From Eledone cirrhosa (taxonomy: Eukaryota): a stretch of 64,000 nt of DNA. Where the stretch lies: positions 404,302,001 through 404,366,000 of the forward strand of contig OZ024741.1 in the NCBI GenBank assembly GCA_964016885.1, read 5' to 3'. Each line of letters opens with the position of its first letter. Position 1 is the first letter of the stretch. Made by a program: the position numbers and the translations under genes. Shown in pieces: positions 12,822-40,526 of this stretch. A model generated the notes under the pieces. That model was not told the DNA's origin, made no database searches, and saw nothing but the letters and a program-made list of their open reading frames with translations.

Positions 12822-13431
12822 ATGGTGGTCTGCTGCATGCGCTCCACCTGGTGTTGCGGTGCCGGTGGTGCGCTGCACGGGCTCCACCTGGTGTTGCGGT
12901 GCCGGTGGCGCGCTGCATGCACTCCACCTGGTGTTGCGGTGCTGGTGGTGCGCTGCATGCACTCCACCTGGTGTTGCGGTGCTGGTGGTGCGCTGCATGC
13001 ACTCCACCTGGTGTTGCGGTGCCGGTGGTGCGCTGCATGCACTCCACCTGGTGTTGCGGTGCTGGTGGTGCGCTGCATGCACTCCACCTGGTGTTGCGGT
13101 GCTGGTGGTGCGCTGCATGCACTCCACCTGGTGTTGCGGTGCCGGTGGTGCGCTGCATGCACTCCACCTGGTGTTGCGGTGCTGGTGGTGCGCTGCATGC
13201 ACTCCACCTGGTGTTGCGGTGCTGGTGGTGCGCTGCATGCACTCCACCTGGTGTTGCGGTGCCGGTGGTGCGCTGCATGCACTCCACCTGGTGTTGCGGT
13301 GCCGGTGGTGCGCTGCATGCACTCCACCTGGTGTTGCGGTGCTGGTGGTGCGCTGCATGCACTCCACCTGGTGTTGCGGTGCTGGTGGTGCGCTGCATGC
13401 ACTCCACCTGGTGTTGCGGTGCCGGTGGTGC
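12822..13431. repeat. 40-bp GC-rich minisatellite, ~15 units
   Basis: Unit cgctgcatgcactccacctggtgttgcggtgcYggtggtg, no spacers. Confidence 0.97.
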
Positions 13432-14958: not shown

Positions 14959-17900
14959 AAAATGAATGTATGTTTGTTTGTTTGTCCAAAGATATAAACG
15001 GAGAAAGAGAAATCAACGTATAGACAAACAGAGAGTGAAAGAGTGAGTAGTCTGGCTGCTTTGAACCACTCCCTATATTAGACTGTCTCTAAAGTTATAA
15101 ACGGAGAAAGAGAAATCAACGTATAGACAAAGAGAGAGTGAAAGAGCAACGTATAGACAAAGAGAGAGTGCTATAAACGGAGAAAGAGAAATCAACGTAT
15201 AGACAAAGAGTGAGTGAAAGAGCGAGTGTGAAATTTTTTAAATTAAAGATAATTTCAATAGAATTAGTATTCTCTCTTTAATTTAATATAATTTCAATAG
15301 AATTAGTAAATTCTCTCTTTAATTTAATATAATTTCAATAGAATTAGTATAGTGTCTGTTTCACATTACTTCCCTTCCACTCCCATTACAGGGAATTCTT
15401 TTTCAGCTAGCCCTTAACTAAGTGCTGTAATTTGATATCTTCATTTCGTCTGTCCTTATTTTCCTGACCTGGACATAAACCAACAGCTTATCTTCCCTAC
15501 CTTTATCTCTATAGAAGTTACTACTTATTTCTTCATCCTTTTCTTTTAGTCTATGTATCTATATAGAGTTTTTTCCTGTTTTTCATCATTTCTCCATATA
15601 CCGTTTCTGGGTTTCCTTTTTAATACCTTGGTGTTTTGATATTCTTAAAATATTATAATACCTTGGTGTTTTAATATTCTTAAAATATTATATCTCTCTT
15701 CCACTATTATCACTAGAATTTCTACTCTAGCTATCTTATAGCCAATCACTAGAATTTCTACTCTAGCTATCTTATAGCCACTAACTGCTGTAATTTGATA
15801 TCTTCATTTCGTCTGTCCTTATTTTCCTTTATTTTCACTCTGTTTTTACAATTGTTTATATCATCAATCAACACATACATATTGGTTATGACTCCTTCTA
15901 CATTTCGATTACATTGAGTTCTTCATACGTATTTCACACTACTTCTCATTTCGGTAGAGTGATTGTGATAAAATATTTTCTATTCAATTATGCCTCCCAA
16001 ACGACGAGCGATTGGTCAATCTACCCCTCAAGCAACGAAAAAATATGCATTACGAGCTTCAGAAACATACGAGCAACGGGAATCACGATTGGAAACCGTT
16101 CGAGTAAGAACTGCTCAAGCCCGTTCATCTGAAACATACGAGCAACGGGAAGCAAGATTGCAAACCGTTCGAGTAACAACTGTCAAGCCCGTTCATCTGA
16201 AACATACGAGCAACGGAAAGCAAGATTGGAAACGAATCGACTACGCAATGCTCTCACAAGAAGAATACTGTACGATGATTTCAATCTTGGTGCATTTCAT
16301 TACGATTCAAATTGTGATTACAGTCCTCATCCAAGTGTGATTATTGGAAAAATGGATAAATTATGCGGGTATTGTGGTGCCCTCAAATTTAAAAATGAAA
16401 CACCAGGAATGTGCTGCTCGGGTGGAAAAGTGAAATTGCCAGAATTATATCCACCACCTGAACCTTTATCAACGTTAGTATCAGGTGACACAAGCGAATC
16501 TAAACATTTCTTGGCAAACATACGCAAGTACAATTCATGTTTCCAAATGACATCGTTCGGTGCAACAAATATCGTGCGCGAGAATTACATGCCAACATTC
16601 AAAGTGCAAGGGCAAATTTATCATCGTGCTGGATCACTACTACCACTGCCGGACGCAGATCACAAATTTCTTCAAATTTATTTCATGGGAAACACTGATG
16701 ACCAAATAGATCAACGTTGCAAATTCAATAGGGGAACTAAACGAGAAATTGTTACTGCATTACAAACTTTATTCAATCAATACAACAAATTAATTAGATT
16801 GTTCAGAGCTGCCCTGGAACAAATGCCAAATGATGACTACACAATTGTAGTTAGAGCAGACAAAACACCTGTTGGCTAACATCAAAGACAGTACAATGCA
16901 CCAACAATTGATGAAGTGGCGATCGTTATTGTAGGTGAAGAATTTAACTCGCGTGATATAATTCTTCACCGCAGAAATGGTGATGTTCAGCGAGTCTCAG
17001 AAACGCATCGGTCATACGATGGATTATAATATCCAATTTTATTTTGCCAAGGAGAAGATGGATATCATTTCAACATCAAACTGAGAAATCCAGAAACAGA
17101 TGAGGAAACGAATAAGAAAGTCAGTGCCATGAATTATTATTCATATAGATTAATGATTCGTGAAAACGGTGAAAATCATATTTTGAAATGTCGACAATTG
17201 TTCCATCAATACATTGTCGATATGTATGCAAAAATCGAAACCGAACGACTTCTCTACATTCGATTGAATCAAACCAAGCTACGTTCAGAAGAGTACATTC
17301 ATTTACGTGATGCCATTGTTGATGATGGCAATATGAATCCTAATGAATTGGGGAAAATGGTCATACTGCCGGCTACATTTACAGGGAGTCCACGGCACAT
17401 GCATGAATACGCACAAGATGCAATGACATATGTTCGCGCATATGGCCGTCCAGATTTGTTCATTACATTCACATGCAATCCTACGTGGGATGAAATTAAA
17501 GGACTTTTGTTACCTGGTCAATCATCTTCGGATCGTCATGATATTACAGCGCGTGTGTTCAAACAAAAATTGAAATCTTTAATCGATTTCATTGTCAAGC
17601 ATCATGTTTTTGGAGAGACACGCTGTTGGATGTATTCCATTGAATGGCAAAAAAGAGGATTGCCACATGCACACATTTTGATTTGGTTGATTGAAAAAGT
17701 CACACCAGATCAAATTGATCAAATCATCTCAGCAGAAATACCAGATGTCAACGTTGATCCAGACTTATTTGAAGTCATCACTAAAAACATGATTCATGGT
17801 CCATGTGGCTTACTCAACAACAATTCACCATGCATGTCTGATGGGAAATGCATGAAACAATACCCCAAAGACTTACTTGCCGACACTATCACTGGCAATG

Positions 17901-20630
17901 ACGGATATCCACTCTATCGTCGACGAGCAACTGAAGATGGCGGCAAATCCATCACTTTAAAAGTACGAAACAATTATGTTGAAGTCAATAATCGTTGGAT
18001 TGTACCATATTCACCGTTACTCTCGAAGACGTTCAAAGCACACATCAATGTCGAGTATTGCAATTCGGTGAAAGCGATCAAGTACATTTGCAAATATATC
18101 AACAAAGGAAGCGATATGGCAGTCTTTGGAGTGTGCAATGCAACTACACCTATCGATGAAATCGACCAATACCAACTGGGACGCTACATTAGTAGTAATG
18201 AAGCAGTATGGCGCATTTTATCATTTCCAATCCATCATCGACATCCAACAGTTGTTCATTTGGCGGTGCACCTTGAAAATGGACAGCGCGTATACTTCAC
18301 AACTGAAAATGTACGTGCAAGGGCACTGACACCACCGCCAACAACGTTAACTGCGTTTTTCTCATTGTGCAGCGAAGATGTGTTTGCAAAGACACTACTT
18401 TATTCTGAAGTGCCAACATATTACACATGGAATACACCAACGAAAAAGTTTAAACGTCGCAAACAGGGTAAAGTAGTTGAAGGACATCCCAATTTATATT
18501 CGACCGACGCGTTAGGCCGTTTGTACACTGTTCACCCAAATAATGCAGAATGCTTTTATTTGCGATTGTTGTTAATTAACATACGTGGATCGACATCATT
18601 CCAAGAATTTAGAACAGTAAACGGTCAAGTATGTGCCACTTATCGTGAAGCTTGCCAAGAATTAAATCTTCTTGAAAATGATGGACATTGGGACACTTCA
18701 CTCGCTGATGCATCGAATACTGCTCGACCAAAGCAAATACGCACATTATTCTCAATAATATTGACAACGTGCTTCCCATCAAATCCAAAAGATCTTTGGG
18801 AAAAATACAAAGACTACATGAGTGAAGACATCCTACATCGTTTGCGTGCAACAAATCAAAATATGAATATTCAATTCACACCAAATGTGTATAATGAAGC
18901 ATTGGTTTCCATTGAGGTCATATGTTTAGCAATCGCTAACAAAACATTGGTACAATTGGGAATGCCTGCGCCGAATCGATCTGTAAACGACATTTTCGAT
19001 CGTGATTTGCAACGAGAAACAAACTTTGATGTCGCCGAATTGGGTACATTTGTTCAAACGAATCTTCCCAAATTGCTACCAGAACAACGCATAGTATATG
19101 ACCAAATTATGCAGGCAATTATAAGTCAAAGCGGCGGATTGTATTTTATAGATGCGCCCGGTGGTACAGGCAAAACCTTTCTCATTTCACTTATTTTGGC
19201 AACTATACGATCAGAAAATAATATTGCACTGGCAATCGCATCATCTGGAATTGCGGCAACTCTTTTAGATGGTGGCCGAACAGCACATTCAGCCCTGAAA
19301 TTGCCATTGAATATGCAAATCGCTGAGACATCAACATGCAATATTACCAAAAATTCTGGTATAGGTAAAGTACTCCAATCATGTAAAATCATTATATGGG
19401 ACGAATGTACTATGGCGCACAAAAAATCATTGGAAGCGTTTAATAATAAGCTAAAAGATTTGAAAGGAAATGAACAGCTCTTCGGTGGCACACTCATTTT
19501 ATTGTCTGGTGATTTTCGACAAACTCTACCAGTTATACCGCGATCAACACCCGCTGATGAGCTTAATGCATGTCTCAAATCATCAGTTTTATGGCGACAC
19601 GTACAGAAATTAACTTTAAAAAACAATATGCGTGTACAACTACAAAATGACGCATCCGCTGAACGTTTCACAAAACAATTGCTGGATATTGGGAATGGGA
19701 AAATGGTAATCGATGATTCCACAACATGTATCACATTGCCAACAAACTTCTGTAGAATCACGGCAACCAGAGACGAACTGATTCACAAAGTGTTCCCAAA
19801 TATTGCGCAGCATTACAAAAATCATCAGTGGCTCAGTGTACGTGCTATATTAGCAGCCAAAAACACCGATATCAATGCCATTAATTTCAGCATTCAAAAC
19901 GAAATACCAGGCGAAGCGACAACGTATAAGTCCATCGATACTGTAATGAATCAAGACGAAATTATCAATTATCCAATTGAATTCTTGAATTCACTTGATT
20001 TGCCAGGCATGCCACCGCACATTTTAACATTGAAAATTGGCGTGCCTATCATCCTTCTCCGAAACATCAATCCACCACAACTTTGCAACGGTACCAGACT
20101 TTCAGTGAAAAAGACGATGAACAATATCATCGAGGCTACAATTTTAAATGGAAAATTTAAAGGAGAAGATGTACTCTTGCCACGCATCCCAATCATTCCA
20201 ACAGATACGCCATTCGATTTCAAACGTTTGCAGTTTCCGGTGCGACTCGCCTTTGCAATGACTATCAACAAAGCACAAAGATAATCGCTACAAGTGTGTG
20301 GACTAAATTTAGAAAATCCATGCTTCTCACATGGACAGCTGTATGTGGCTTGCTCACGCGTCGGTAAACCTTCTGATTTATTCGTGTACGCACCAGAAAG
20401 AAAAACAAAAAAACATTGTGTATCCAAAAGCACTTCAGTAAAACAAATTAAATGTTCTTATAACGAATTTTCTTTAAATTCGTCAGTCATTCAGTCATTT
20501 AAAGATAAATGTTAAAATCTAAAAAATAGAAACTAAATTACAGAAATTTTTAAATAACGATTAAAATGTTAATATTATTCTTTTCTAAATAAGCTTTTTA
20601 ACACTGAGCGAAGCCGGGTAGCTCCGCTAG
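14949..20630 (+). mobile_element. Autonomous-type Helitron (inactivated)
   Basis: Rep-PIF1 ORF. 3' end ctgagcgaagccgggtagctccgCTAG|T at 20603-20631. 5' tatatataaaaatgaatgtatgtttg motif, but the terminal TC is not resolvable in the (CA)/(TA) tract. Tandem repeats in the 5' region. Confidence 0.92.
15990..20441 (+). pseudogene. Helitron Rep-helicase (HUH-Y2 endonuclease + PIF1 helicase)
   Basis: Zn-finger-like CGYCGA..CCSGG; HUH motifs PDLFITFTCNP, EWQKRGLPHAHIL, KYICKY; Walker A DAPGGTGKT, Walker B IIWDE, GDFRQTLPV, GQLYVACSRV. Lesions: frameshift ~16180, TAA at 16877, 17027 and 20282, poly-A frameshift ~20410. Confidence 0.95.
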
Positions 20631-25481: not shown

Positions 25482-25950
25482 AGGAGTGTGGAATAAGAAG
25501 GGCTGTTGGAATTATCTAGGGGCTTGGGAGAAGCAGGGGACTTGGAATAAATAGGGGTGTTGGAATAGACAGGGGCTTGAGAGGAGCAGGGGTCTTGGAA
25601 TAAACAGAGCTGTTGAATAGACAGGGGTCAGGGAGAAGCTAGGTATTTGGAGGCGTTTGGAATAAACAGGGGTCTGGGAGAAGCAGGGAGTGTGGAATAA
25701 GAAGGGGTGTTGGAATAGACAGGGGTCTGGGAGAAGCAGGGAGTGTGGAATAAGAAGGGGTGTTGGAATAGACAGGGGTCTGGGAGAAGCAGGGAGTGTG
25801 GAATAAGAAGGGGTGTTGGAATAGACAGGGGTCTGGGAGAAGCAGGGAGTGTGGAATAAGAAAGGGTGTTGGAATAGACAGGGGTCTGGGAGAAGCTAGG
25901 GGGCTTTAAATAAGCAGGGGAGTTGGAATACTCGGAGGGGTTGGGAATAA
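25482..25950. repeat. G-rich 53-bp minisatellite built from three ~18-bp subunits
   Basis: gggagtgtggaataagaaggggtgttggaatagacaggggtctgggagaagca repeated at 25686, 25739, 25792 and 25845, with diverged flanking units. Confidence 0.9.
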
Positions 25951-26390
25951 GAGGTGGTGTGTGTGTGTGGGGGGGGGGATAAGCAAGCAGTGGTGAAATC
26001 GGTAAATTTTCTAGGTTGTCTCCGTTGATTCTTTTGAAAACCAGAATTAGACGTTTAGTTTATATATATTGAGACGCCAACCCATCCTATTTATTTTATA
26101 ACGTATTGGATTTCTAGTAATGTAGATTTTTGTCGTTTATAATAAGCCGCGGGCGAGGGGTGATCATTCGAGAACCGAGAATAACAGATAATTATAAGAA
26201 TATCCTTGATGCTGCTAATGATTTCTATCATAGATCAAAGGCGTTCTATCACAGACCATCCCTCTTTATTTTAAACGGCATAAATATGGTAAGGATTGAT
26301 GGAATGGTCTAAGATGTTACACGTGTTTATACAGGTTCGAAGGAATGTTTGTTTATATCTATATATCTACCTATCTATCTATCTATCTAT

Positions 26391-27454
26391 CACCGACCAA
26401 CCGGTGTGGACACCGTTTGTGAGACAGGCCTTCCCACAACTTGTCTCGCTGACGGAGCTGCAGTCCTGGGTCAAGCGAAGACCGAAGAATATGGGCCCCT
26501 GGCACATTGAATGCGCCCAGGCACTCACAGTCCTCTGTCAAATGGGCACAGAAATCAGTGGAGACTCCACTTCGACATTCTACAGAGGGTTAGTACTTTA
26601 CAAGTGCGACGACGTGCTCGGGGAGATTCTAGGCGTCGAAGACGACGAGCTCAACAGTCTCTTGGGTTGGACTTTCCACCCGGGAGCTATGGACAACTTC
26701 CAGAGGTCCCTGGCATGGCAGTGTTACCGAGGAGCTCTACCTGTTCGAGATAAGATCTACAGGCACGGACGCCCCGGCAGGGATCCTTCCAAGAGGACGT
26801 GTCCAAGATGCGAGCAGGACATCGAAACCGTCTTGCACGCAATTGTACACTGCCCGGGCGTAAGCGACCTGTGGAACTATGCGGAACAACTGCTGTCACG
26901 CATGGGACAAATCCAGTTGACTGCCGAGTCCATAGTAAGGATCAAACCGCCAGCCTCTTTCAAAAGCGAAAGAGAGGAGGTTTTCCTCTGTACAGTGGCT
27001 ATGGTGAAAGAGGTTATACGGTGGACGAGATTGAGAGGACTGAGAACAGATGCCTTTCTCGTTCGGACAGCAATTTATTCCCTTCTTTAAGTATCACTTT
27101 AGAAGGAGAATCAGAGTGGAGAGAGAGGCACTGCAGCCCAGTAAATTTACTGAAAGGTGGGTGAATGAAGCGAAAATGGCCCGAGCGATTGGGCCTTCTC
27201 TGTTTATAAGCTTATAGGTTAAAGAAGAGAGCAAAAGGAAGAAGGGAGCACTTGCACAACACGCTCCTGAAGTTGAGGGTTGTTCTATCGACGGGGTATT
27301 AAACAAACCATTTGTGGCGCCTCCCCTCTATTGGGGATTCCGATTGTTATAATTGTTTGTTTCAATATTTTTACACGACTGTATGTAAAATCCCCGGCAT
27401 GTGTCTTTGTATTGTCCCTTTTTTTTGTGCGCCCTTGTGGCAAATAAAGAAATA
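26391..27454 (+). mobile_element. Tx1-clade LINE copy 1 (5'-truncated, subfamily alpha)
   Basis: C-terminal CPRC..ETVLHAIVHC zinc finger, 3'UTR ending AATAAAGAAA, (TATC)n on both sides. Confidence 0.9.
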
Positions 27455-27489
27455 TATCTATCTATCTATCTATCCCTCTATCTATCTAC

Positions 27490-30047
27490 CTCGGAAGTGA
27501 AAATTGACAACAAATCCACGATTCGGTCTTTGAAAGACCAAAACGGACGCGTGCTACTTGACCCCTGGCAGATGTGCGCGGCCTTTCAGTGACACTTTGC
27601 GCGACTGTTTGAGCAGAACGATGGTGCACCGAACGGGGTAATGGACTTTAGTTCATACCTCGACGGCCTGCCGCGTCTCTCGAGCATGGACGCCGACTTC
27701 TGTGAAAGACCGATCACAGCCACTGAGATAAGGGACGCTCTGGGCCGCTGCGGGAAACGCAAATCACCCGGTCTAGATGGTCTACCCTATGATTTTTACA
27801 TAGGAATGCCGGGCTTGTTCTCTGGCATCCTCGAAGCCGTCTACTGCAATTGGCATCAGAACGGGACAATTCCCAGTTCTGCTGGCAAGGGCGTAGTAAT
27901 GCTGATGAGAAAGACGAGAACAAGGGAGACGAAATAAACAATTTCAGGCCCATATCTCTGCTCAACACAGAGTTACAGATTTTGGCCAAGGTACTAGCAA
28001 CGTGGCTGGCGCTTGTCGTCGAAAACCTGGTAGGGAAAGCACAAACGTGTGCAATCCCAACTAGGTCCATACACGACAACCTTCACCTCATGCGATACAT
28101 CATAGAGAGGGTAGGGTGTAAACCCGGCTTCGGTGGGGCTCTAATCAATTTAGATCAGTCTAAGGCATTCGATAGGGTCGACCATCGATACTTGGAAGCG
28201 GTTCTCAAGGCAGCCGGTTTCGGTCCCGTTTTCAGAGGCTGGATAAAGGCGATGCACACCAGCATCTGCTTAAAGGTCAAGGTGAACGGCTACCTATCGG
28301 ATCCGTTCGCAATCACGCATTCCATTCGACAAGGATGCCGTCTCTCCTCCATTCTGTACGTATTGACTCTAGAGCCACTACTGCGGAAGTTGGAGCTTTT
28401 GTAGGGCATCCCTTTAGAACCGGGACTGCGAAAAGCAGCTCCGGCCTATGCCGACGACGTGACGGTAATGGTGTCGAAAACCTCGGAAATACAGGTAATC
28501 GGCAACCTACTACAGTAATACGAAAGGTTCACAAGAGCAAAACTGAACCTTGACAAGTCTGTCGGTTTGCAACTCAGAACGTGGAGAGGCAAACCGATGC
28601 CCTCCGACAGCGTTGTCGGACGCTGGACGGTAGGACGAGTGAAATTGTTGGGTCTGGTTCGGTCTAGACTTCCAGGTGGAGAAAAACTGGACGAGGTCAT
28701 GGCCAAGTTATTTGCGCTCACCCAGAAGTGGGTAAAGTGCAAACTGTCTTTGAAAGGTCGGGCGGAGGTGTCGAACAATTTCATAGCGTCCGTCATCTAC
28801 TAACGCTTGACTGTCATGCTTTGTCCCCGTAAATACCTCACCAAGATGGAACGCATGCTCTTCCAGTTCCTGTGGAAGAAGCAGGCTCCCCTGTGATGAG
28901 ATCCGTCTGCTGTCAACACCCTTCCCATGGAGGGCTGGGCATGCCGTGGCTAATGATGCGCAAACATGCGCTGAGACTACGGCATCTCCAGGTATTCCTC
29001 ACCGACCAACCGGTGTGGGCACCGTTTGTGAAACAGGCCTTCCCACAACTTCTCTCGCTGACGGAGCTGCGGTCCTGGGTCAAGCGAAGACTGAAGAAGA
29101 TGAGCGCCTGCCACATTGAATGCGCCCTGGCGCTCACAGTCCTCTGTGATCAATGGAGACTCCACTTCGACATTCTATAGAGGGTTAATACTTTACAAGT
29201 GCGACGAAGTGCTCGGGGAGACTCTAAGCGTCGAAGACGACGAGCTCACCAGTCTGTTCTGTAGGACTTTCCGCCCGGGACCTATGGATAACTTCCAGAG
29301 GTCCCTGGCCTGGCAGTGATACCGAAGAGCTCTACCCGTTCGAGACAAGATCTACAGGCATGAACAACCCGGCAGGGATCCTTCCAAGAGGACGTGTCCA
29401 AGATGCGAGCAGGTCATTGAAACCGTCTTGCACGCAATTGTACACTGCCCGGGCGTAAGCGACCTGTGGAACTACGCTGAACAACTGCTGTCACGTATGG
29501 GACAAATCCAGTTGACTGCCGAGTCCATAGTAGGGTTCAAACCGCCAGCCTCTTTCAAAAACGAAAGAGAGGCGGTTTTCCTCTGTACAGTGGCTATGGT
29601 GAAAGAGGTTATATGGTGGACGAGATTGAGAGGACTGAGGACAGATGCCTTTCTCTCCGGACAACAATTGATTCCCTTCATTAAGTATCACTTTAGAAGG
29701 AGAATCAGAGTGGAGAGAGAGGCACTGCACCCCAGTAAATTTACTGAAAGGTGGGTGAATGAATTGAAAATGGCCCGAGTGATTGGGCCTTCTCTGTTTA
29801 TAAGCCTGTAGGTTGGTTAAGGAAGAGAGCAAAAGAAAGAAAGGAGCACTTGCACAACATGCTCCTGAAGTTGAGGGTTGTTCTATCGACGGAGTATTAT
29901 ACAAACCATTTGTGGCGCTTCCCCCCTATTGGGAATTTCGATTGTTATAATTGTTTGTTTTATATTTTTTACATGACTGTATGTAAAATCCCCGGCATGT
30001 CTTTGTATTGTCCCCTTTTCTTGTGCGCTCTTGTGGCTAATAACGAA
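27490..30047 (+). mobile_element. Tx1-clade LINE copy 2 (5'-truncated, subfamily alpha, RT pseudogene)
   Basis: KSPGLDGLP, NFRPISLLN, LDQSKAFDRVDH, IRQGC, YADD; several stops and frameshifts. Confidence 0.92.
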
Positions 30048-30101
30048 ATCTATCTATCTATCTATCTACCTATCTATCTATCTATATATATATCTATCTA
30101 T

Positions 30102-30664
30102 GGTTGACCACCGAGTCTATTGTAACGATCAAACCGCCTCCCCTCTTCAAAAACGAAGGAGAGGCGGTGTTTCTGTGCTTAATAGCCATGGCGAAAGAGG
30201 TTGTATAGTGAACGCGTCTGAAAGGACTGAGGTCAGACACCTTTCTCTCAGGCCAACAACTGGGCCGTTTCTTCCGATATCATTTCGGAAGAAGGATCAG
30301 GATGGAGAGAGATGTGCTGCACCCCAGCCGTTTTTATGAAAGATGGGTGAAAGTGGCGAGAATGGCCCGTGTGAATGGGCCTTCACTCTACATCAGACTA
30401 TAGGTGAGGATGATGAAAGACCAAGGGAGCACCCCTTCTCTGTGCTCCTGAGGAAAAGGGTTGCACACTTTTTTCGGGGGTGTGTGCGACCCCCCAAGGC
30501 GCCTCCTCTCTATTGAGGATTTTGTTATATATTTTATTTTGTTATATTTTATTTTATTTTATATTTTGTTATTGCCTCCTCCTTATTGAGGACGCCTTGT
30601 TTTGTAAACTCCCCCCATTGTACTTGTCCCACTTTTGATGCTCTGGTGGCAAATAAAAGAAACA
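30102..30664 (+). mobile_element. Tx1-clade LINE copy 3 (3' fragment, subfamily beta)
   Basis: Near-identical to 32555-33175 and 38588-38988. Confidence 0.9.
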
Positions 30665-30749
<85 letters not shown>

Positions 30750-33175
30750 GAGATAGAGGACGTGCTGAGCCAATGCGGCAAACGCAAATCCCCGGGTCTC
30801 GATGGTCTTCCTTACGAATTATATCTAGCTATGCCGGACTTGTTCCCCGATCTCCTCGAGGCGGTCTACTGCACATGGCAACAGAACGGGAGAATTCCCT
30901 GTACTGTGACCAAGGGCGTAGTCACGCTAGTGAGGAAGGACGAGAACAAGGGGACGAAATAAGTAACTTCAGGCCCATAACTCTGCTAAATACAGAGTTA
31001 CAGATTTTGGCCAAGGTGCTAGCAAAGAGGTTGGCGCTTGTCGTGGGCAACCTGGTGGGAGATGCGCAGACATGCGCTATCCCGTCCAGGTCCATCCATG
31101 ACAACCTCCACCTCATGCGATACATCATAGAGAGGGTTGGGAACGAACCCGGCTTTGGTGGGGCTCTGATCAACTTGGATCAATCTAAGGCGTTCGATAG
31201 GGTCGACCATGGTTACCTGGATGCGGTGCTAGCGGCGGCAGGCTTCGGACCCGTTTTCAAGGGCTGGATCACTGCTATGCACAGCAGCCGCATCTGCTCT
31301 AGGATCAAGGTGAACGGCTACCTCTCGGAGCCGTTCAAAATCGCGCGGTCCATCCGACAAGGGTGCCCTCTCTCCTCCCTTCTGACGTGTTGACTCTCGA
31401 GCCACTACTGCGGAAGTTGGAGTTGTTGCAGGGCATCCCTTTGGAACCGGGATTGCGGAAAGCGGTGTCGGCCTACGCCGATGACGTGACATTAATGGTG
31501 TCAACGGCCTCCGAAATCAAGGCGGTCGGCACCTTACTGGAGGAGTACGAAAAGTTCACAGGGGCTAAGCTGAACCGGGACAAGTCGATCGGTTTGCAAC
31601 TCGGCACGTGGAGGGGAAGACCGATGCCCTCCGATGGCGTCGTCGGACGCTTGACGGAGGGCCCGGTGAAGTTGCTCGGGGTCTGGTTCGGACCGGACCT
31701 CCAGGTGGAGAAAAACTGGGCGGAGGTTACGAACAGGGTGTTTGCACTGACCCAGAAGTGGGCCAGTTGCAAACTATCCCTGAAAGGTCGGGCGGAGGTG
31801 GGGAACACCTACATAGCGTCCGTCATCTACTACCGCCTGACCGTAGTGCCCTGCCCAAGGGAAACCCTCACCAAGATGGAGCGCGCGCTCTTCCAATTCC
31901 TTTGGAAGAGGCGGGCTCCTATGGTGAGGAGATCCATCTGCTGTCAACACCCTTCGAAAGGAGGGCTGGGGATGCCGTGGCTAATGATGCGTAAACACGC
32001 ATTAAGGCTACGGCACCTCTACGTATTCTTCACCGGACAACCGGTGTGGGCCTCGTTTGTGAGACGAACCTTTCCCAGACTCGTCTCACTCACCGAGCTG
32101 CAATCCTGGGTCAAGCAATGACCGAGAAAACTGGGCGCCTGGCACACTGAGTGTGCCCAGGCGCTCACCGCCCTCTGGCAGGAGGATCCGGTTATCAGTG
32201 GAGACTCCACCGCAACATTCTATAGAGGGCTGGTACGCAGCAGGTGCGACGACGCCCTCGGAGAAGCCCTAGACATGGAGGAGGACGAACTGGCCGGCCT
32301 GTTCGGTAGGACATTCAGCCCGGGACCTATGGACAACTTCCAGAAGTCCCTGGCCTGGCAGTGCTACCGAGGAGCTTTACCCGTTCGAGAAAGGCTCTAC
32401 AGACACGGGCGCCGGGGTAGGGACCCCGCCAAAAAGATCTGTCCCAGATGCGTGTGCGACGAGGAAACCGTTGCACACGCATTGGTACACTGCTCGGGCG
32501 TAGCCGATCTGTGGGGCTATGTCGAACAACTGCTGTCAAGGGTGGGACCGATCCGGTTGACCACCGAGTCTATTGTAATGATCAAGCCGCCTCTCCCCTT
32601 CAAAGATGAAGCAGAGGCGGTGTTTCTGTGCGTAATAGCCATGGCGAATGAGGTTGTATGGTGGACGCGTCTGAAAGGACTGAGGTCAGGCACCTTTCTC
32701 TCTGGCCAACAACTGGTCCGTTTCTTCCGATATCATTTCGGAAGAAGGATCAGGATGGAGAGAGAGGTGCTGCACCCCAGTCGTTTTTATGAAAGGTGGG
32801 TGAAAGTGGCGAGAATGGCCCGTGTGAATGGACCTTCTCTTTACATGAGCCTGTAGGTGGAAAAGAGGAAGGAACGAGGGAGCACCCCCTCCCTGTGCTC
32901 CTGAGGAAAAGGGTTGCACACTTTTTTCGGGGGTGTGTGCGACCCCCCAAGGCGCCTCCTCTCTATTGAGGATTTTGTTATAAATTTTATATTTTGTTAT
33001 AATTTATAACAAAATCCTCTATTGAGGATTTTGTTATAATTCTATTTTTTGTTATATTTTATTTTATTTTTATATATTGTTATTGCCTCCTCCCTATAGA
33101 GGACGCCTTGTTTTGTAAACTCCCCCCATTGTACTTGTCCCACTTTTGATGCCCTTGTGGCAAATAAAAGAAACA
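30750..33175 (+). mobile_element. Tx1-clade LINE copy 4 (5'-truncated, subfamily beta, RT pseudogene)
   Basis: RT motifs (DQSKAFDRVDH, RQGCPLS, YADD) and CPRC..ETVAHALVHC. Confidence 0.92.
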
Positions 33176-33183
33176 TATCTATC

Positions 33184-33214
<31 letters not shown>

Positions 33215-33547
33215 CTATAATAATCTAGCTGTCGTCTGTTCTACAGCGTAGATGTAATTCACTTCGCGCAGAAGTTTTGTTCCAATTTATTGCGGAAATT
33301 TTGTAAGTTCGATTTTAATTTTGATACTATTGTGTAGCTTGAACCCCGTCTGAACTGTGAGACGGTGGGTCAGCTCATCTTCGCCCCTCTCAGGGCTGAA
33401 AAACCTGTTTTTAAAAATTTTGTCGCATAAAAAATTCAATCGTCTGACAGAAAAGTTAAACGAAGCTAACGAAAATAGTGGTGGGGGGACAGCGGTAAGA
33501 GTTGTAAGCTCGCACGCTTTAGACACCCTTCTTTCCCAACTAACGTC

Positions 33548-35356
33548 ATAGGGAAGGAAAGAAAAAATAAAATAAAAACAGACGAATGTGCGGAGAAAAA
33601 TGACGAAAACACAAATCTGGACATTGATTCCAACAACAAAAAAAAATTTGAAAAATTGCCGGACAATATTAATACCACAAACAAAGACACAACAAACACA
33701 AAAATAACATTTGAAAACAACATCATAACAGAGAGCAAAGCAGACGACAAAGTCAACACCAATAATATTTCATTTGCACAAACAACAAAGAAATCTTTGA
33801 CATATATACCTGAAAATATTTCAGATGTGGCACAAAGAATTATAAACGCCAAACAATACATAACTCAATGGGAAAATGGTATTTTATCGGTAAAAATGCC
33901 TCAAGAACTCACCAAAGACATTGAAAGTCGGACGGTCGTTTTCCGCACCATCAACAACATTTCTAAAAAACCTCAACAGCCAACACAAACAGAAATCAAA
34001 GCAGTACTTACAGAAGTACTTAATGAAACCACTTTCATAAGAAGAGACAGACTGTATGGTAGCCTAGCGATTATTATGAATTACGAATCGGCGGCAAAAA
34101 AATGTGCTTTGTCGCCGATTCGTTCGACAAATTTTACTTTTTATCCATCTTATATGGGTAAAAGAACTCAGCGCATATGGCTGGATGCAATGATGCCAGA
34201 TGTGGATTACTGCTGGCTCATAGCTGGTTTCATCGATCCAGCGAATGACAACGTGATTTCCATTGGGAAAACCACAGGCAATGCGTTCAGTGGAACAGGT
34301 ATAGAACTTGTAGTGCAAATGAAGCCTGAACGCATCGCCCAAATACCCGACAGAATCCTATTAGAGGGCCATCGGTATATAAACATTAGCGTGGAGGGCA
34401 GAAGGCCGTCCTGTCATATCTGTGCAGGCACAGGGCACCTGAAGGCGGCTTGTCCCCAACTCAACAAAAAGAAAACCCTGATACCAACACCAGCTCCACC
34501 ACCACCACAACAGATAAACAAACAACAAAACTCAGTCCCACCCAACCCGTCCCTCAGTAAAACTACACCACCACCACACCACAAACAGTCACAACACATT
34601 ACCCCAAAACAAAACACAGTCCCACCCAACCCCTCACTCACTAAAACAACACAACCACCGCAGCCACAACACACAACACAGTCTAACATAGTGACATCCA
34701 TCTCCCCCACAAAGAAAACCAACACGGAAACATTACCAGCAAACATACCTCTTCCCTCCAACACTGAAGATAACCCAACGAATTCGGAGGAAGGAACGGA
34801 GTCCTTCAGACAGATTAAAAGGAAAAAAAGAAAACATGTGCAAATCACACAAGGCCAAACAACCCCTACCCAAATGTCAACACAATCCAATAAAACACAA
34901 AACACCCCTCCAGCAACAAACAAAACAAAACCTGCCCCTCCCCTCTTCGAAACACTCACACCATCCGAAAAAAAGACATTTCACTATACTTACATCAACA
35001 GAAACAATAATAAATTAAATGAACTCATAAACAATAATCCTTCGGTACAAACCGAAGGTGTAAACTTTGTTTCTTCAGAAAACTACCCACATTTAAAATT
35101 AATAAAGATCCCAATGAACCTCTACCAAAAACTAAAAAAGGATATTAAGGAGGACGTAGGACCACCCTCTGTCAAACCCATAAACCGCGTCCTACTAAAA
35201 AGCTTTTCCCCTCCCCTTCCCCTCCCCAACACAACTCCAAACACCCCAACCCCACCACACACTGACGACCCCATACCACCACAAGATACCCCTTCACCCA
35301 ACACCCCCGACCCCATGGAAGTGGTGCGACCCGAACCCCGGGAAGCAGAAAGGTAG
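33548..35356 (+). CDS. Tx1 ORF1 gag-like protein with CCHC zinc knuckle and P/T/Q-rich tail
   Basis: EGRRPSCHICAGTGHLKAACP. Frame is open from 33479; the start is inferred at gtcATAg (33548), possibly a mutated ATG. Confidence 0.8.
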   Translation: MGKERKNKIKTDECAEKNDENTNLDIDSNNKKKFEKLPDNINTTNKDTTNTKITFENNIITESKADDKVNTNNISFAQTTKKSLTYIPENISDVAQRIINAKQYITQWENGILSVKMPQELTKDIESRTVVFRTINNISKKPQQPTQTEIKAVLTEVLNETTFIRRDRLYGSLAIIMNYESAAKKCALSPIRSTNFTFYPSYMGKRTQRIWLDAMMPDVDYCWLIAGFIDPANDNVISIGKTTGNAFSGTGIELVVQMKPERIAQIPDRILLEGHRYINISVEGRRPSCHICAGTGHLKAACPQLNKKKTLIPTPAPPPPQQINKQQNSVPPNPSLSKTTPPPHHKQSQHITPKQNTVPPNPSLTKTTQPPQPQHTTQSNIVTSISPTKKTNTETLPANIPLPSNTEDNPTNSEEGTESFRQIKRKKRKHVQITQGQTTPTQMSTQSNKTQNTPPATNKTKPAPPLFETLTPSEKKTFHYTYINRNNNKLNELINNNPSVQTEGVNFVSSENYPHLKLIKIPMNLYQKLKKDIKEDVGPPSVKPINRVLLKSFSPPLPLPNTTPNTPTPPHTDDPIPPQDTPSPNTPDPMEVVRPEPREAER

Positions 35357-35389
35357 GTCTCTACACTCTCCTTTGGCTTTGCCGCCCAC

Positions 35390-38345
35390 ATGGATGTGTT
35401 AAGAGTAGGATGTTTGAATGCACGTGGCCTGGGCTCAACTTGGAAGCAAGCAAAGCTTCTAAATGACCTCAGGTCACGTGGTATAAATGTAATGGTTATC
35501 TGTGAGACTCGGATCAGCGTCGTGCGGCAGCTGGCCCCTACCTTCGATGACTTTGAGGTGCATGCATCTCTCTGTCAACCTAGAGGTGGAGGTGGGGTTG
35601 TCGTACTGCTGGAAAAACACCTGGGTCTCGCCGTACAGGTTGTTCACTCGGACCCGGAGGGTCCTTTGTTGGTGCTAGACGTTGGCAGTAGTGAAGGTGC
35701 GGCCTTGAGACTGGTCGCCGTCAACTCCCCTTTCGGAGCTGAACGGCCCGACTTCTTCTCTCAAAAGAGAGATTAGAACAGAATCAATAAGTTATAGCAA
35801 GATGTTAGCTGCCGATAGGAATAGAAACGAGAAAGAATTAACAGGTAAATTAGAAGAGGCAATCAAGAGCGAAGATGTGGCCAGAGTGCTGGCATCGAGG
35901 ACGGCCTTGAACCAGTTTTTCGATGCAAAGCACGAAGGCTGCGTCATTCGAACTAAAATACGTGCTCTAGGTAATGAGGGGGCCAAAGCCGTTGGCTGGG
36001 CCAGCGTGACAGAAGCTAAGAGTGGAAATCGATCCACCATCCAGTCTTTGCAAGACGAGGATGGACGGGTGGTCCGGGAGCCTAAGCAGATGTGCGAGGC
36101 CTTTCAAAGGCACTTTGCCCGATTAATCGGGGGAGGCGAGGGTCCGGGCGGGGACGTGGATTTCGGTTAATACCTCGTCGGCCTGCCGCGTCTCTCGAGC
36201 GAAGAGGCAGAGTCCTGCGAGGGACCAATCTCGGCTGATGAGATCGGGGATGCGCTGAGCCAATGCAGCAGACGCAAATCTCCAGGTCTCGATGGTATAC
36301 CTTAAGAACTTTATTTAGCAATGCCGGTCTTCTTCTCCGAACTCCCCGAAGCGGTCTACTGCAATTGGCAGCAGAACGCGAGAATTCCTTGTTCTGTAGC
36401 CAAGGGCGTAGTCTCGCTGGTGAGGAAGGACGAGAACAAGGGGTATAGTATAAATAATTTTCGGCCCATAACCCTGCTAAACACAGAGTTAAAGATTTTG
36501 GCCAAGGTGTTAGCAAAGAGGTTGGCGCTTGTCGTGGGTGGCCTGGTGGGAGATGCGCAGACATGTGCTATCCCATCCAGGTCCATTCACGATAACCTCC
36601 ACCTCATGCGATACATCATAGAGAGGGTTGGCAACAAACCCGGCTTCGGTGGGGCCCTGATCAACTTGGATTAGTCTAAGGCTTTCGATAGGGTCGACCA
36701 TGGTTACCTGGATGCGGTGCTAGCGGCGGCTGGGTTCGGTCCTGTTTTCAGATGCTGGATAGCCTTACATAGCAACCACATCTGCTCTAGGATCAAGGTG
36801 AACGGCTACCTTTCGAAGCCGTTCGAAATCACACGATCCATTCGACAGGGGTGCCTTCTCTCCTCCCTTCTGTACGTATTGACTCTCGAGCCTTTACTGA
36901 GGAAGTTGGAGTTGTTGCAGGGTATCCCCCTGGAACCAGGATTGAGCAAAGCGGTGTCGGCCTACGCCGATGACGTAACAGTAATGGTATCGATCGATTC
37001 GGAGATCGAGGCGATCGGTACCTTACTGGAGGATTACGAAAGGTTGTCAGGAGCGAAACTGAACCGGGAAAAATCCATCGGGTTGCAACTCGGAACGTGG
37101 AGAGGCAGACCGATGCCTCCCGACGGTGTCGTCGGATACTGGACGGAGGGCCCGGTGAAGTTGCTTGGGGTCTGGTTTGGACCGGACCTCCAGGTGGAAA
37201 AGAACTGGGACGAGGTTACGAACAAGGTGTTTGCACTAACCCAGAAATGGGCCAAGTGTAACCTGTCCCTAAAAGGTCGGGCGGAGGTGGCGAACATTTA
37301 CATAGCGTCCGTCACTTACTACCGCCTGACTGTCGTGCCTTGCCCTAAGGAAACACTCACCACCATGGAACGCATGCTCTTCCAATTTCTTTGGAAGAAG
37401 CACCCTCCTATGGTGAGAAGATCCCTCTGCTGCCAACAACCTTCGAAAAGAGGGCTGGGGATGCCGTGGTTGATGATGCGTAGGCACGCATTAAGGCTAC
37501 GGCACCTACAGGTATTCCTCACTGGTCAACCGGTGTGGGCTCCGTTCGTGAAACGAGCCTTTCCGAGACTCGTCTCGCTCACCCAGCTGCAGTCCTGGGT
37601 CAAGCAAAGATCCGGAAAACTGGGAGACTGGCACACTGAGTGTGCCCAGGCGCTCAGGGCTCTCTGGCAAGCGGGCCAGGCCATCGGTGGAGAATCCACC
37701 TCATCATTCTATAGAGGGCTGGTGGCTAGCAGGGGCGATGACACCCTTGGAGAGTCGCTGGACATGGAAGAGGACGAACTGGCCAGCCTGTTCGGTAGGA
37801 CTTTCGGCCCGGGACCAATGGACAACTTCCAGAAGTCACTAGCCTGGCAGTGCTACCGCGGGGCTCTACCCGTTCGAGAGAGGCTCTACAGACACGGGCG
37901 CCCGGGCAGGGATCCCTCGAAAAAGATTTGCCCTAGATGCGTGCGTCACGAAGAAACCGTTGCGCACGCATTGGTGCAATGTCCGGGCGTGGCTGATCTG
38001 TGGGGCGACGCCGAACGACTGCTGTCGCGGGTGGCGCCGATTCGATTGACCGCCGAGTCCGTGATGACAATCAAGCCGCCTCCCCCTTTCACAAAGGAAG
38101 CAAAGGCGGTTTTTCTGTGCGTAATAGCCATGTTGAAAGAGGTTGTTTGGTGAACACGATTGAAAGGTCTGAGGTCAGGCAACTTCCTCTCTGGCCATAG
38201 TCTGGTCTACTTCTTCCGATATCACTTCGGAAGAAGGATAAGAATGGAGAGAGAGGTGCTTGGCCACAGGCAGTTTTATGAAAGGTGGGTGAAAGAGGCG
38301 AGAATGGCTCGTGTAAATGGGCCTTCTCTGTATACCATCCTGTAG
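35390..38345 (+). pseudogene. Tx1 ORF2 APE endonuclease-RT-CCHC, disrupted
   Basis: MDVLRVGCLNARGL..VMVICETR (APE N-terminus), deletion near 35758, YADD at 36963-36974, CPRC..H..C; stops at 36168, 36304, 36672 and 38151. Confidence 0.92.
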
Positions 38346-38587
38346 GTAAAGAAGTGAAGGAGAGGGGAGCACCTTCTCCATGTGCTCCCCGGGCAAAGGA
38401 TTGCACACTTTTTCGGGGAGGGGGGGTTGCAATCCCCATCACGTCCCCTCCCTTTTGAGGTTGTTTTCGATTATTTTCATTTTATACCCTTTTTACTCGA
38501 TTTTATGTAAACTCCCCCTTTGTATTTGTCCCTTCTTTTTATGCCTTTATGGTAAAAAAAGAAATCTATCTATCTATCTATCTATCT

Positions 38588-38988
38588 CGTTTCTTCCGAT
38601 ATCATTTCGGAAGAAGGATCAGGATGGAGAGAGAGGTGCTGCACCCCAGCCGTTTTTATGAAAGATGGGTGAAAGTGGCGAGAATGGCCCGTGTGAATGG
38701 GCCTTCACTCTACATCAGACTATAGGTGAGGAAGATGAAAGACCAAGGGAGCACCCCTTCTCTGTGCTCCTGAGGAAAAGGGTTGCACACTTTTTTTCGG
38801 GGGTGTGTGCGACCCCCCAAGGCGCCTCCTCTCTATTGAGGATTTTGTTATAAATTTTATTCTGTTATATTTTATTTTATTTTTATATTTTGTTATTGCC
38901 TCCTCCTTATTGAGGACGCCTTGTTTTGTAAACTCCCCCCATTGTACTTGTCCCACTTTTGATGCCCTGGTGGCAAATAAAAGAAACA
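38588..38988 (+). mobile_element. Tx1-clade LINE copy 6 (3' fragment, subfamily beta)
   Basis: Matches 30266-30664. Confidence 0.9.
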
Positions 38989-39432
38989 TATCTATCTATC
39001 TATCTATCTATCTATGTAGCTAGCTAGATAGATAGATAGATAGGTAGATAGATAGGTAGATATGTATCTATCTAACTGCCCCCCTCTCTCTGTCTCTCCG
39101 TCTCTCTCCATATCTATTTCCTTATTACACCTATGGATATTGCTGCATACACACACACACACACACACATGTATATATATATATATATATACAACACACA
39201 CGCACACACATATATATATATATATACAACACACACACACACACGCACACACATATATATATATATATAGATATACAACACACACACACACACACACACA
39301 TATATATGTATATATGTATGTGAGAGGTGAGAGGTGTGTGTATATATATACATACATATATATATATAGCATAGCTGCAGCCAGAGCTTCGATGATGCTG
39401 AACTTCCATTTGTATATATATATATATATAAA

Positions 39433-40222
39433 TCATCATCACTACCACCACCACCATCACCATCACCACCACCACCACCACCACCACCACCACCACCACC
39501 ACCATCATCACCACCACCATCACCATCACCACCACCATCACCATCACCACCACCACCATCACCACCACCACCACCACCATCACCACCACCATCACCACCA
39601 CCACCACCACCATCACCACCACCGCTACCATCATCACCACCACCACCACCATCACCACCACCATCACCATCACCACCACCACCATCACCACCACCACCAC
39701 CATCACCACCACCATCACCACTATCACCACCACCACCACCATCACCACCACCACCACCACCACCACCACCACTATCACCACCACCACCATCACCACCATC
39801 ACCACCACCATCACTACCACCATCATCACCACCATCACCATCACCACCACCACCACCACCATCACCACCACCATCATCACCACCACCACCACCATCACCA
39901 CCACCATCACCATCACCACCACCACCACCGCCATCACCACCACCACCACCATCACCACTATCACCACCACCACCACCACCACCACCACCATCACCACCAC
40001 CATCACCACCACCACCATCACCACCATCACCATCACCACTATCACCATCACCACCATCACCATCACCACCACCACCACCACCATCACCACCACCATCATC
40101 ACCACCACCACCACCATCACCACCACCATCACCATCACCACCACCACCACCGCCATCACCACCACCACCACCATCACCACCACCATCACCACTATCATCA
40201 TCATCACCACCATCACCATCAT
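39433..40222. repeat. (CAC/CAT)n trinucleotide array
   Basis: Direct reading; similar arrays at 55955-56495, 58625-59120 and 63220-63360. Confidence 0.97.
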
Positions 40223-40526
40223 CGTTTCTTTCATCACCGTTGTCTATACCAAACCTCTTTATTATCGCCTTCCTCGTTGCTTTCATCGTCTACCATATAT
40301 TATATATTTTACATCTTCGATATATAATCGATTTCATGTCGTCACTGTTGCTATCAATCAACACGTGTTTGTGTGTGTGCCTCATCGTGTAATCACTGTC
40401 TGCTTGCTGTGTATTCTTCATGTGTATAATACATCATTTATGTGCTGCATATATATGTTATATGCTGTGTATATGTATTATTATATGCTGCATATATATA
40501 TATATATACATATATATGTATGTATA

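What the first reader, a model, noticed from the sequence alone, without database searches (positions are those of the whole stretch)
26356..39015. Stack of six co-oriented Tx1-clade LINEs, all inserted in one (TATC)n microsatellite: candidate (GATA/TATC)n-targeting retrotransposon family
Seen: six copies (26391, 27490, 30102, 30750, 33219, 38588) on the same strand. Each is preceded and followed by a (TATC)n tract, each has a different 5' end, and each ends AATAA(A/C)..GAAA or a variant with no poly(A). They fall into three 3'UTR subfamilies (1+2; 3+4+6; 5), which argues for independent insertions rather than tandem duplication. Even the first copy has TATC on its 5' side, so the repeat is not only a tail. 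Established: Tx1-clade APE elements include sequence-specific families (Kibi on (TC)n, Koshi on (TTC)n, Keno on U2, Mutsu on 5S, Dewa on tRNA arrays). Inference: this family cuts (TATC)n strand-specifically and regenerates its own target, producing self-growing arrays. I do not recall a described (TATC)n-specific Tx1 in this lineage, but cannot check.
Basis: partly seen in the sequence, partly recalled or inferred. Interest (0 to 1): 0.8.

Follow-up and report, generated by a model that had tools for sequence, protein, structure and literature searches.

The report
Jumping gene homing on TATC repeats
Six copies of a very abundant retrotransposon lie head to tail in one TATC repeat, and copies across this genome sit in TATC repeats on both sides and always face the same way, so the element likely seeks out and cuts this repeat, a target we found no report of for this kind of element.

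Summary
Confirmed. Window 26356-39015 holds six co-oriented LINE copies (five 5'-truncated, one near full length), each between (TATC)n tracts, each with its own 5' end, from three subfamilies. It is a genome-wide habit, not a local oddity. Of 15,878 exact 3'-end motifs, 12,946 are followed by TATC. In 96 dispersed copies, 76 have TATC repeats on the 5' side too (background 0.17%) and none has the opposite strand. Target-site duplications of about 10-22 bp start at TATC even at near-unique sites. No copy of 86 has poly(A). One segmental duplicate shows an empty tract beside a filled one. Intact copies encode an ORF1 with a CCHC knuckle and an L1-group APE-RT ORF2 of about 1150 aa. It scores closer to Xenopus Tx1L than to human L1 but forms a separate branch with cephalopod proteins. 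Most likely it is a microsatellite-targeting L1/Tx1-group family that works like Kibi/Koshi but reads TATC. Ten literature searches found no such target; Repbase/Dfam could not be checked. Tract growth at each insertion is mostly the duplication itself, and some stacks elsewhere are tandem duplicates. Whether the endonuclease or RNA priming gives the specificity is untested.

The parts
26356..26391 (+). TATC tract 1 (imperfect, 36 bp), 5' of the first copy; last 2 nt shared with c1
26390..27454 (+). c1: 5'-truncated copy, subfamily A (C-terminal ORF2 with zf-RVT region and 3'UTR)
   Evidence: 90.8% to a full-length A copy in L215
27455..27489 (+). TATC tract 2
27490..30047 (+). c2: 5'-truncated copy, subfamily A (RT onward, frameshifts and stops)
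   Evidence: 89% to the A copy in L215; tblastn
30048..30101 (+). TATC tract 3
30102..30664 (+). c3: 5'-truncated copy, subfamily B, short 3'UTR variant
30665..30749 (+). TATC tract 4, 21 perfect units
30748..33175 (+). c4: 5'-truncated copy of young subfamily B (RT onward)
   Evidence: 98.5% to the intact copy L117
33176..33221 (+). TATC tract 5
33222..38563 (+). c5: near full-length copy, subfamily C, with an internal deletion of about 478 nt at about 35758
   Evidence: 96% to L092 on both sides of the gap
33479..35356 (+). ORF1 of c5 (625 aa stop to stop) with one CX2CX4HX4C knuckle
   Evidence: zf-CCHC weak, E 0.07; sister ORF1 resembles CCHC and RNA-binding-domain clusters (lead only)
35357..38345 (+). 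ORF2 of c5, broken: N-terminal half of the APE endonuclease, RT, zf-RVT
   Evidence: intact sister P0003
38564..38587 (+). TATC tract 6
38588..38988 (+). c6: shortest copy, subfamily B short variant
   Evidence: 98.3% to c3 but 99.3% to a copy on another chromosome, L074
38989..39015 (+). TATC tract 7, 3' of the last copy
39017..39062 (+). (GATA)n-type tract (TATC on the minus strand) right after the stack; no copy in it

Best explanation
The stack consists of six copies of an abundant, young L1/Tx1-group LINE family that sits in TATC repeats genome-wide in one fixed orientation, likely built by six separate insertions, each likely begun by the element's endonuclease nicking the GATA strand just before a TATC unit. 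Shown: co-orientation with TATC on both sides; target-site duplications of about 10-22 bp that begin at TATC (sometimes TATA); no poly(A); intact copies with all the usual APE catalytic motifs, RT and zf-RVT. Inferred: the nick falls on the bottom strand at 5'-..AGATA/G (or /A), that is top strand Y^TATCT. The freed 3' end, which reads ..GATA, primes reverse transcription, likely by pairing with UAUC units that the RNA carries from read-through into the donor's own tract, so any poly(A) is skipped. A second nick 10-22 nt downstream gives the duplication. Each insertion thus leaves a tract on both sides and adds 2-5 units; occasional priming further down the RNA tail and ordinary microsatellite slippage lengthen tracts more. 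Later copies of any subfamily then land in these tracts in the same orientation and the stack grows.
For: Genome-wide exact counts: 12,946 of 15,878 3'-end motifs are followed by NN-TATC; 226 of 262 subfamily-B ends are followed directly by TATC; 309 of 375 minus-strand subfamily-C 5' ends have TATCTATC within 20 nt upstream. Inspected copies: 5' TATC 8-mer within 24 nt in 76 of 96, and in 43 of 62 with no family copy upstream, against 279 of 159,680 background windows; opposite strand 0 of 96; 3' flank starts with TATC in 80 of 86. Truncated copies 41 of 54. Duplications at near-unique sites start at TATC or TATA: L073 10 nt, L094 20, L100 18, L107 18 with one mismatch, L108 18-19, L229 19-22, L125 15. 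With TATC runs removed, 5' and 3' flanks of the same copy still resemble each other (0.31 against 0.12 +/- 0.02; 0 of 2000 permutations; n=50). Segmental duplicate on C28: one paralog has a bare (TATC)8, the other has (TATC)20 - 562-bp copy - (TATC)14 at the same place; a second site has 16 units against 17+2+27 around two extra copies, while five tracts without new copies kept 3,3,4,3 and 6 or 7 units. Poly(A) in 0 of 86. Intact ORF2 P0001/P0003 with Exo_endo_phos, RVT_1 and zf-RVT, catalytic motifs aligned to L1, and a model that matches L1 ORF2p best. Young: B copies are 98-99% alike. Contigs of two other coded organisms (B, G) show TATC repeats after the same 3' end.
Against: Specificity is loose: 20 of 96 copies lack a 5' TATC 8-mer, and some sit in (TA)n, (TC)n, TACC or TGTC variants or at unique sites; L009 has no visible duplication. 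Extra 3' repeats beyond the duplication were seen in only 1 of 17 marker-bearing cases (L106), and 3' tracts are not longer than 5' tracts (Wilcoxon p 0.49), so tail addition is not the rule. In the paralog pair the 5' tract (20 units) is longer than the whole empty tract (8), which tail addition cannot explain, and the empty state could be a loss by recombination between flanking tracts; the insert's 99.6% identity to another copy fits insertion after the duplication but does not prove it. The inspected copies are the best-scoring hits of three searches (99 of 117 non-window hits examined in the tallies, 3 dropped), so they lean young. No cleavage or RNA data exist here. Several of the 17 marker duplications are short or low in complexity.
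Confidence: 0.75

Rival explanations
1. Targeting is real but comes from the RNA, not the endonuclease. A loosely specific endonuclease nicks many AT-rich sites, and only nicks that expose a ..GATA 3' end can pair with the UAUC units at the RNA's 3' end and prime reverse transcription.
For: The 3' junction is exact to the base (226 of 262) and lacks poly(A). Near-unique sites share little more than TATCT. The hairpin loop that probes the target is the same length as in loosely specific human L1 (alignment) and 2 residues shorter than in Tx1L. Primer-tail pairing is proposed for RTE elements (PMC6007223, abstract) and for SART1 and R1Bm (PMC7265360, passages).
Against: Most copies sit in multi-unit tracts (76 of 96), not at lone TATC 4-mers, which are far commoner. 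Pairing at the first unit alone would be satisfied by any lone TATC. Kojima 2015 states that target choice is mainly set by the endonuclease (PMC4494074, passage).
Confidence: 0.2
2. TATC is only a 3' tail made by the element, and 5' TATC is merely the tail of an upstream copy.
For: 34 of 96 inspected copies have a family 3' end within 170 nt upstream. L106 has eight extra 3' units at a site with one.
Against: 43 of 62 copies with no upstream copy still have 5' TATC. Duplications show that the 3' TATC is the copied target. An empty paralogous site is a bare TATC tract.
Confidence: 0.03
3. This stack arose by tandem or segmental duplication, or by misassembly.
For: This does happen at other loci: L288-L289 has four units with the same 5' break, 97-99.9% alike, and 3 of 4 regularly spaced subfamily-C stacks have neighbours at least 99.4% alike. 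c6 is 98.3% identical to the 3' part of c3.
Against: Six different 5' ends and three subfamilies 57-64% alike in the 3'UTR. c6 is closer to a copy on another chromosome (99.3%) than to c3. The two best other matches to the c5-c6 junction have other downstream copies with other break points. The 210 nt left of the stack matched nothing else among 40 scored hits.
Confidence: 0.02

Closest known systems
Kibi and Koshi (Tx1 clade, teleost fish; Kojima and Fujiwara 2004, as cited in PMC4494074 and PMC3812793)
   Same: APE-type LINE inserted specifically into a microsatellite.
   Different: Targets are (TC)n and (TTC)n, here (TATC)n. The host here is an invertebrate. This lineage falls outside the cluster of vertebrate Tx1L-like proteins; Kibi and Koshi sequences themselves were not available.
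Crocodilian Tx1 families on (TTCC)n/(TTTC)n (Tx1-1_Crp and others; PMC4494074 section 15)
   Same: Tetranucleotide microsatellite target and Tx1-type element.
   Different: Their targets are all pyrimidine on one strand; TATC is mixed purine/pyrimidine. They group with Kibi and Koshi.
Xenopus Tx1L (P14381, P0088)
   Same: Closest element of known identity: 30% over 833 aa, 309 bits against 168 for human L1. Two ORFs, APE-RT with C-terminal zinc motif.
   Different: Tx1L targets the Tx1D transposon, has a 1308-aa ORF2 and a longer hairpin loop. ORF2 here is about 1150 aa.
Waldo/Mino on (ACAY)n/(AC)n and SART1/TRAS on telomere repeats (R1 clade)
   Same: APE LINEs that insert into simple repeats; pairing of RNA with the nicked strand is proposed for SART1 and R1Bm.
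   Different: R1 clade, insects, other repeats; SART1 keeps a poly(A) tail, while none was seen here.
L1-Tx1 families of Octopus vulgaris (PMC13282606: 80 consensus families, 56 Mb, 13 recently active)
   Same: Probably include relatives of this family, since the closest named protein is from Argonauta hians (62%).
   Different: No target preference appeared in the passages or the one supplement searched; their sequences were not compared.

Membership tests
L1 group of non-LTR retrotransposons | ORF2 with N-terminal APE endonuclease, RT and C-terminal CCHC (zf-RVT), preceded by an ORF1 | tested here: met
   Pfam on P0001/P0003; best PDB matches by sequence and by fold are human L1 ORF2p; intact ORF1+ORF2 in L117
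L1 group of non-LTR retrotransposons | Variable 5' truncation and target-site duplications (TPRT signature) | tested here: met
   54 of 96 copies truncated; duplications of about 10-22 bp
L1 clade proper (vertebrate L1) | Poly(A) tail and TTTT/AA target (definition recalled; L1-EN poly(T)-A junction in PMC1950540) | tested here: not met
   Poly(A) in 0 of 86; target starts at TATC
Tx1 clade | RT phylogeny grouping with reference Tx1 families | tested here: inconclusive
   Scores higher against Tx1L than human L1. In a FastTree of 126 RT rows the family with two relatives and 12 ENA proteins is one branch (support 100), unresolved beside the vertebrate Tx1L-like cluster; no labelled L1 or Repbase references were in the tree
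Tx1 clade | Gag-like ORF1 with CCHC zinc knuckle (feature recalled) | tested here: met
   CX2CX4HX4C in P0002 and in c5 ORF1; Pfam zf-CCHC weak, E 0.03-0.07; atlas look-alikes carry zf-CCHC
Target-specific non-LTR family (Kojima 2015 criterion) | One type of sequence in more than 20% of flanks | tested here: met
   79% of 5' flanks and 82-93% of 3' flanks; criterion
Kibi/Koshi group | Insertion into (TC)n, (TTC)n, (TTCC)n or (TTTC)n | tested here: not met
   Target is (TATC)n; only isolated copies border (TC)n (L211, L106)
Kibi/Koshi group | RT sister to Kibi/Koshi | not testable with these tools
   No labelled Kibi or Koshi sequence was obtainable
Sequence-specific APE retrotransposon | Endonuclease nicks its target specifically in vitro | not testable with these tools
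   Needs biochemistry

The most novel reading that the evidence does not exclude
An undescribed lineage of L1-group LINEs in cephalopods evolved sequence specificity independently of Kibi/Koshi. It reads (GATA/TATC)n, primes on read-through repeat RNA instead of poly(A), and with more than 16,000 copies is a main builder and lengthener of the genome's long GATA repeats.
Probability: 0.35. Interest if true: 0.7.

Novelty: new variant of a known kind. Interest (0 to 1): 0.5.

Why it matters
Microsatellite-targeting APE LINEs are known, but the lists seen here name only TC, TTC, TTCC, TTTC, AC, ACAY, TAA and TG targets. A TATC reader on a separate branch would be a further independent origin of target specificity in the L1 group. 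With intact, young copies and a hairpin loop of L1 length, it gives a clean test of how an APE domain gains specificity and whether protein or RNA sets the target. At 16,000 or more copies, it also offers a concrete link between a transposon and the birth, growth and breakup of GATA repeats in a large genome. It warns that TATC/GATA markers in these animals may often border this element. It is not a new kind of system.

Tried and rejected
A metagenome scan with P0001 found nothing; with alignment A1 it gave only 24-43% relatives, used as tree filler. Sequencing runs: no RNA holder listed, which says nothing on expression. Laying contigs over the c4-c5 junction failed because the repeat was skipped. 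In one search, organism D showed one TATC-like unit after the 3' end, and organism F showed mixed loose ends without clear TATC. A single-sequence fold of the endonuclease was unusable (pLDDT 31); the alignment-based model is moderate (pLDDT 63) and weak in the hairpin loop. The maximum-likelihood tree did not finish; FastTree was used. The idea that L093/L097 were a co-mobilised pair was rejected: they lie in a segmental duplication of more than 30 kb. The L008/L124 duplicate shares its insertion and gave no empty site. A TATG just 5' of c3 was considered as a marker for insertion order and dropped because the G can come from the element. No earlier scan findings came up. Dropped before counting: L097 and L124 (duplicate twins) and L219 (5' end unresolved). 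L277 and L278 were fetched later and are not in the tallies; both have TATC on both sides.
Full report
Observation. The window lies in a 3.0-Gb genome of 1796 contigs (G000, C2:404302001-404366000). Between 26356 and 39015 it holds six LINE copies on the + strand, each between TATC tracts of 24-85 bp. Five are 5'-truncated at different points (402-2558 bp). c5 is near full length but lacks about 478 nt of its endonuclease region and has stops in ORF2. Over the last 230 nt the copies fall into three groups, A (c1, c2), B (c3, c4, c6) and C (c5), 57-64% alike between groups. Outside 26300-39100 the window has no (TATC)3 or (GATA)3 tract.

The element. Intact copies exist elsewhere in G000. L117 has a 595-aa ORF1 and a 1153-aa ORF2; L092, L093, L118, L119 and L253 have long ORF2s. 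ORF2 carries Exo_endo_phos, RVT_1 and zf-RVT. The APE motifs LNARG, GDWN, S.LD and SDH are present and align with human L1. An 18-sequence AlphaFold model (pLDDT 63) matches L1 ORF2p best. ORF1 has one CX2CX4HX4C knuckle and a long low-complexity tail. The closest proteins are an unnamed NCBI protein (69%) and one from Argonauta hians (62%), then a block of unnamed ENA/JGI proteins at about 40%; a cephalopod host is inferred from this alone. Xenopus Tx1L scores 309 bits and human L1 168 bits. In a FastTree of 126 RT rows, the G000 copies, these two relatives and the 40% block form one branch (support 100) that stands unresolved beside the vertebrate Tx1L-like cluster. No labelled L1, Kibi or Koshi was in the tree, so Tx1 membership is likely, not shown.

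Abundance and age. One 17-nt 3'-end motif occurs 15,878 times; it misses subfamily C and the c3/c4/c6 type of end, so 16,000 is a floor. Subfamily C has 754 exact 5'-end motifs. Subfamily B copies are 98-99% alike. In 400 kb of evenly spaced stretches, 10,951 bases matched the family or distant relatives, mostly from one stack, so this share is rough.

Targeting. Genome-wide, 12,946 of 15,878 3' motifs are followed by two bases and TATC, and 226 of 262 B ends directly by TATC. Of 375 minus-strand C 5' ends, 309 have TATCTATC within 20 nt upstream; the plus-strand count is inflated by overlapping matches and was not used. I inspected 99 of the 117 non-window hits of three searches and dropped three. 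In the remaining 96, a TATC 8-mer lies within 24 nt of the 5' junction in 76 (A 24/32, B 30/36, C 22/28), and in 43 of 62 with no family 3' end upstream, against 279 of 159,680 background windows. The opposite strand was seen in 0 of 96; the 3' flank starts with TATC in 80 of 86. Truncated copies alone give 41 of 54, and 28 of 40 without an upstream copy, so 5' TATC is not carried in by the RNA's 5' end. Twenty copies lack the 5' 8-mer; several sit in TA, TC, TACC or TGTC variants or at near-unique sites.

Junction anatomy. Where flanks carry unique letters, the duplication is visible and begins at TATC or TATA right after the element's last bases: L073 10 nt, L125 15, L100 18, L107 18 (one mismatch), L108 18-19, L094 20, L229 19-22. 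The base before it is C or T. The three bases after GAA (ATA, ATC or ACA) do not match the pre-insertion site in L100 and L229, so they belong to the element. With TATC runs removed, the two flanks of a copy still resemble each other more than shuffled pairs do (0.31 against 0.12; 0 of 2000; n=50). No copy of 86 has a run of eight A at its 3' end, although most end with AATAAA about 7-10 nt before the junction.

Growth of tracts. An automatic marker search found 17 duplications, some weak: 16 had no extra 3' repeats and one (L106) had 36 extra nt. 5' and 3' tract lengths do not differ. A segmental duplication on C28 gives two empty/filled pairs: (TATC)8 against 20 + copy + 14, and 16 units against 17 + copy + 2 + copy + 27; five tracts without new copies stayed at 3, 3, 4, 3 and 6 or 7 units. 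This is more growth than duplications of 2-5 units give, on the 5' side too, so slippage must contribute; loss of the copies by recombination in the other paralog is not excluded. In the 400-kb sample, 3 of 12 tracts adjoin a family copy, among them the two longest (8 and 17 units).

Origin of this stack. Six different 5' ends, three subfamilies, a closer relative of c6 on another chromosome than c3, no second copy of the c5-c6 junction among 40 scored hits and a unique left flank point to six insertions. Stacks are common: 34 of 96 copies have a family end upstream and 23 of 86 a same-strand neighbour downstream, with none on the other strand. Some stacks elsewhere look like tandem duplicates. 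Read support for the assembly could not be tested.

Other organisms. Related DNA is held by runs of several coded organisms (laid). Single contigs of organisms B and G continue into TATC repeats after the 3' end, and one in G continues into a sequence like the subfamily-B 5' end; D shows one unit and F is unclear. This is a hint from few contigs.

Mechanism. By the established TPRT scheme, a duplication that starts at TATC means a first nick on the GATA strand, 5'-..AGATA/G, and a primer ending in GATA. With no poly(A) in the inserts, the simplest reading is that the RNA runs into the donor's tract and its UAUC units pair with that primer. This step is inferred, by analogy with R1Bm, SART1 and RTE elements. 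The preference for multi-unit tracts over lone TATC favours a role for the endonuclease. Its hairpin loop is as long as that of L1 and two residues shorter than that of Tx1L (the loop's role), so RNA-driven selection remains a live rival.

Literature. Ten full-text searches listed no TATC- or GATA-targeting LINE. Seen: PMC4494074 passages and section 15, with supplements not readable, though its Tx1 tree with targets may bear on novelty; PMC3812793, PMC10294476, PMC9115989, PMC7265360, PMC1950540, PMC4640811 and PMC9004415 passages; PMC13282606 passages and one supplement; PMC6007223 abstract. Kojima and Fujiwara 2004 is not held. Repbase, Dfam and subscription reviews were not searchable, so the target may already be on record there; I put that at about 40%.

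Verdict. A real, well-supported microsatellite-targeting LINE family: a new variant of a known kind. Interest 0.5.

Noticed in passing
window 16062-20284 (+): Helitron: a 1084-aa open frame (17030-20284) with Helitron_like_N and PIF1 domains, preceded by a 248-aa frame and a 68-bp tandem repeat.
   Followed up: partly
window 10426-11274 (-): 282-aa frame that looks by eye like the C-terminal GIY-YIG part of a Penelope-like element; no Pfam hit.
   Followed up: partly
window 32961-33039: c4 carries an inverted repeat inside a 3'UTR insert of about 55 nt that c3 and c6 lack; the young B copies share it.
   Followed up: partly
L288-L289 (G000:C2:372389500-372409499): Family stack with four units sharing one 5' break, partly at a 1443-bp period and up to 99.96% alike: tandem duplication or an assembly artefact.
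   Followed up: partly
L298-L305 (G000:C1 at 168.1, 271.1, 239.9 and 192.1 Mb): Head-to-tail full-length subfamily-C copies; three of the four stacks have neighbours 99.4-99.98% alike, one 95%.
   Followed up: partly
L275 and L276 (C28 duplicate): A related subfamily copy is followed by (TGTC)n instead of (TATC)n; L086 also has TGTC on both sides. Could be a relaxed or shifted target.
   Followed up: no
L091, L105, L122 (5' flanks): Three insertions share the same upstream motif before the TATC tract, so another dispersed repeat carrying a TATC tract may be a recurrent target.
   Followed up: no
L211-L230 (subfamily A 5' ends): Full-length A copies with similar ORF2 have at least three different 5' ends, suggesting 5'UTR replacement.
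   Followed up: no
window 25995-26143: A 150-bp dispersed repeat (1344 candidates, 86-90% alike) just left of the stack.
   Followed up: no
window 12823-13431, 25483-25930, 39437-40223: Minisatellites: a 40-bp unit x15, a 53-bp unit x8.6 and a long (CAC/CAT)n array.
   Followed up: no
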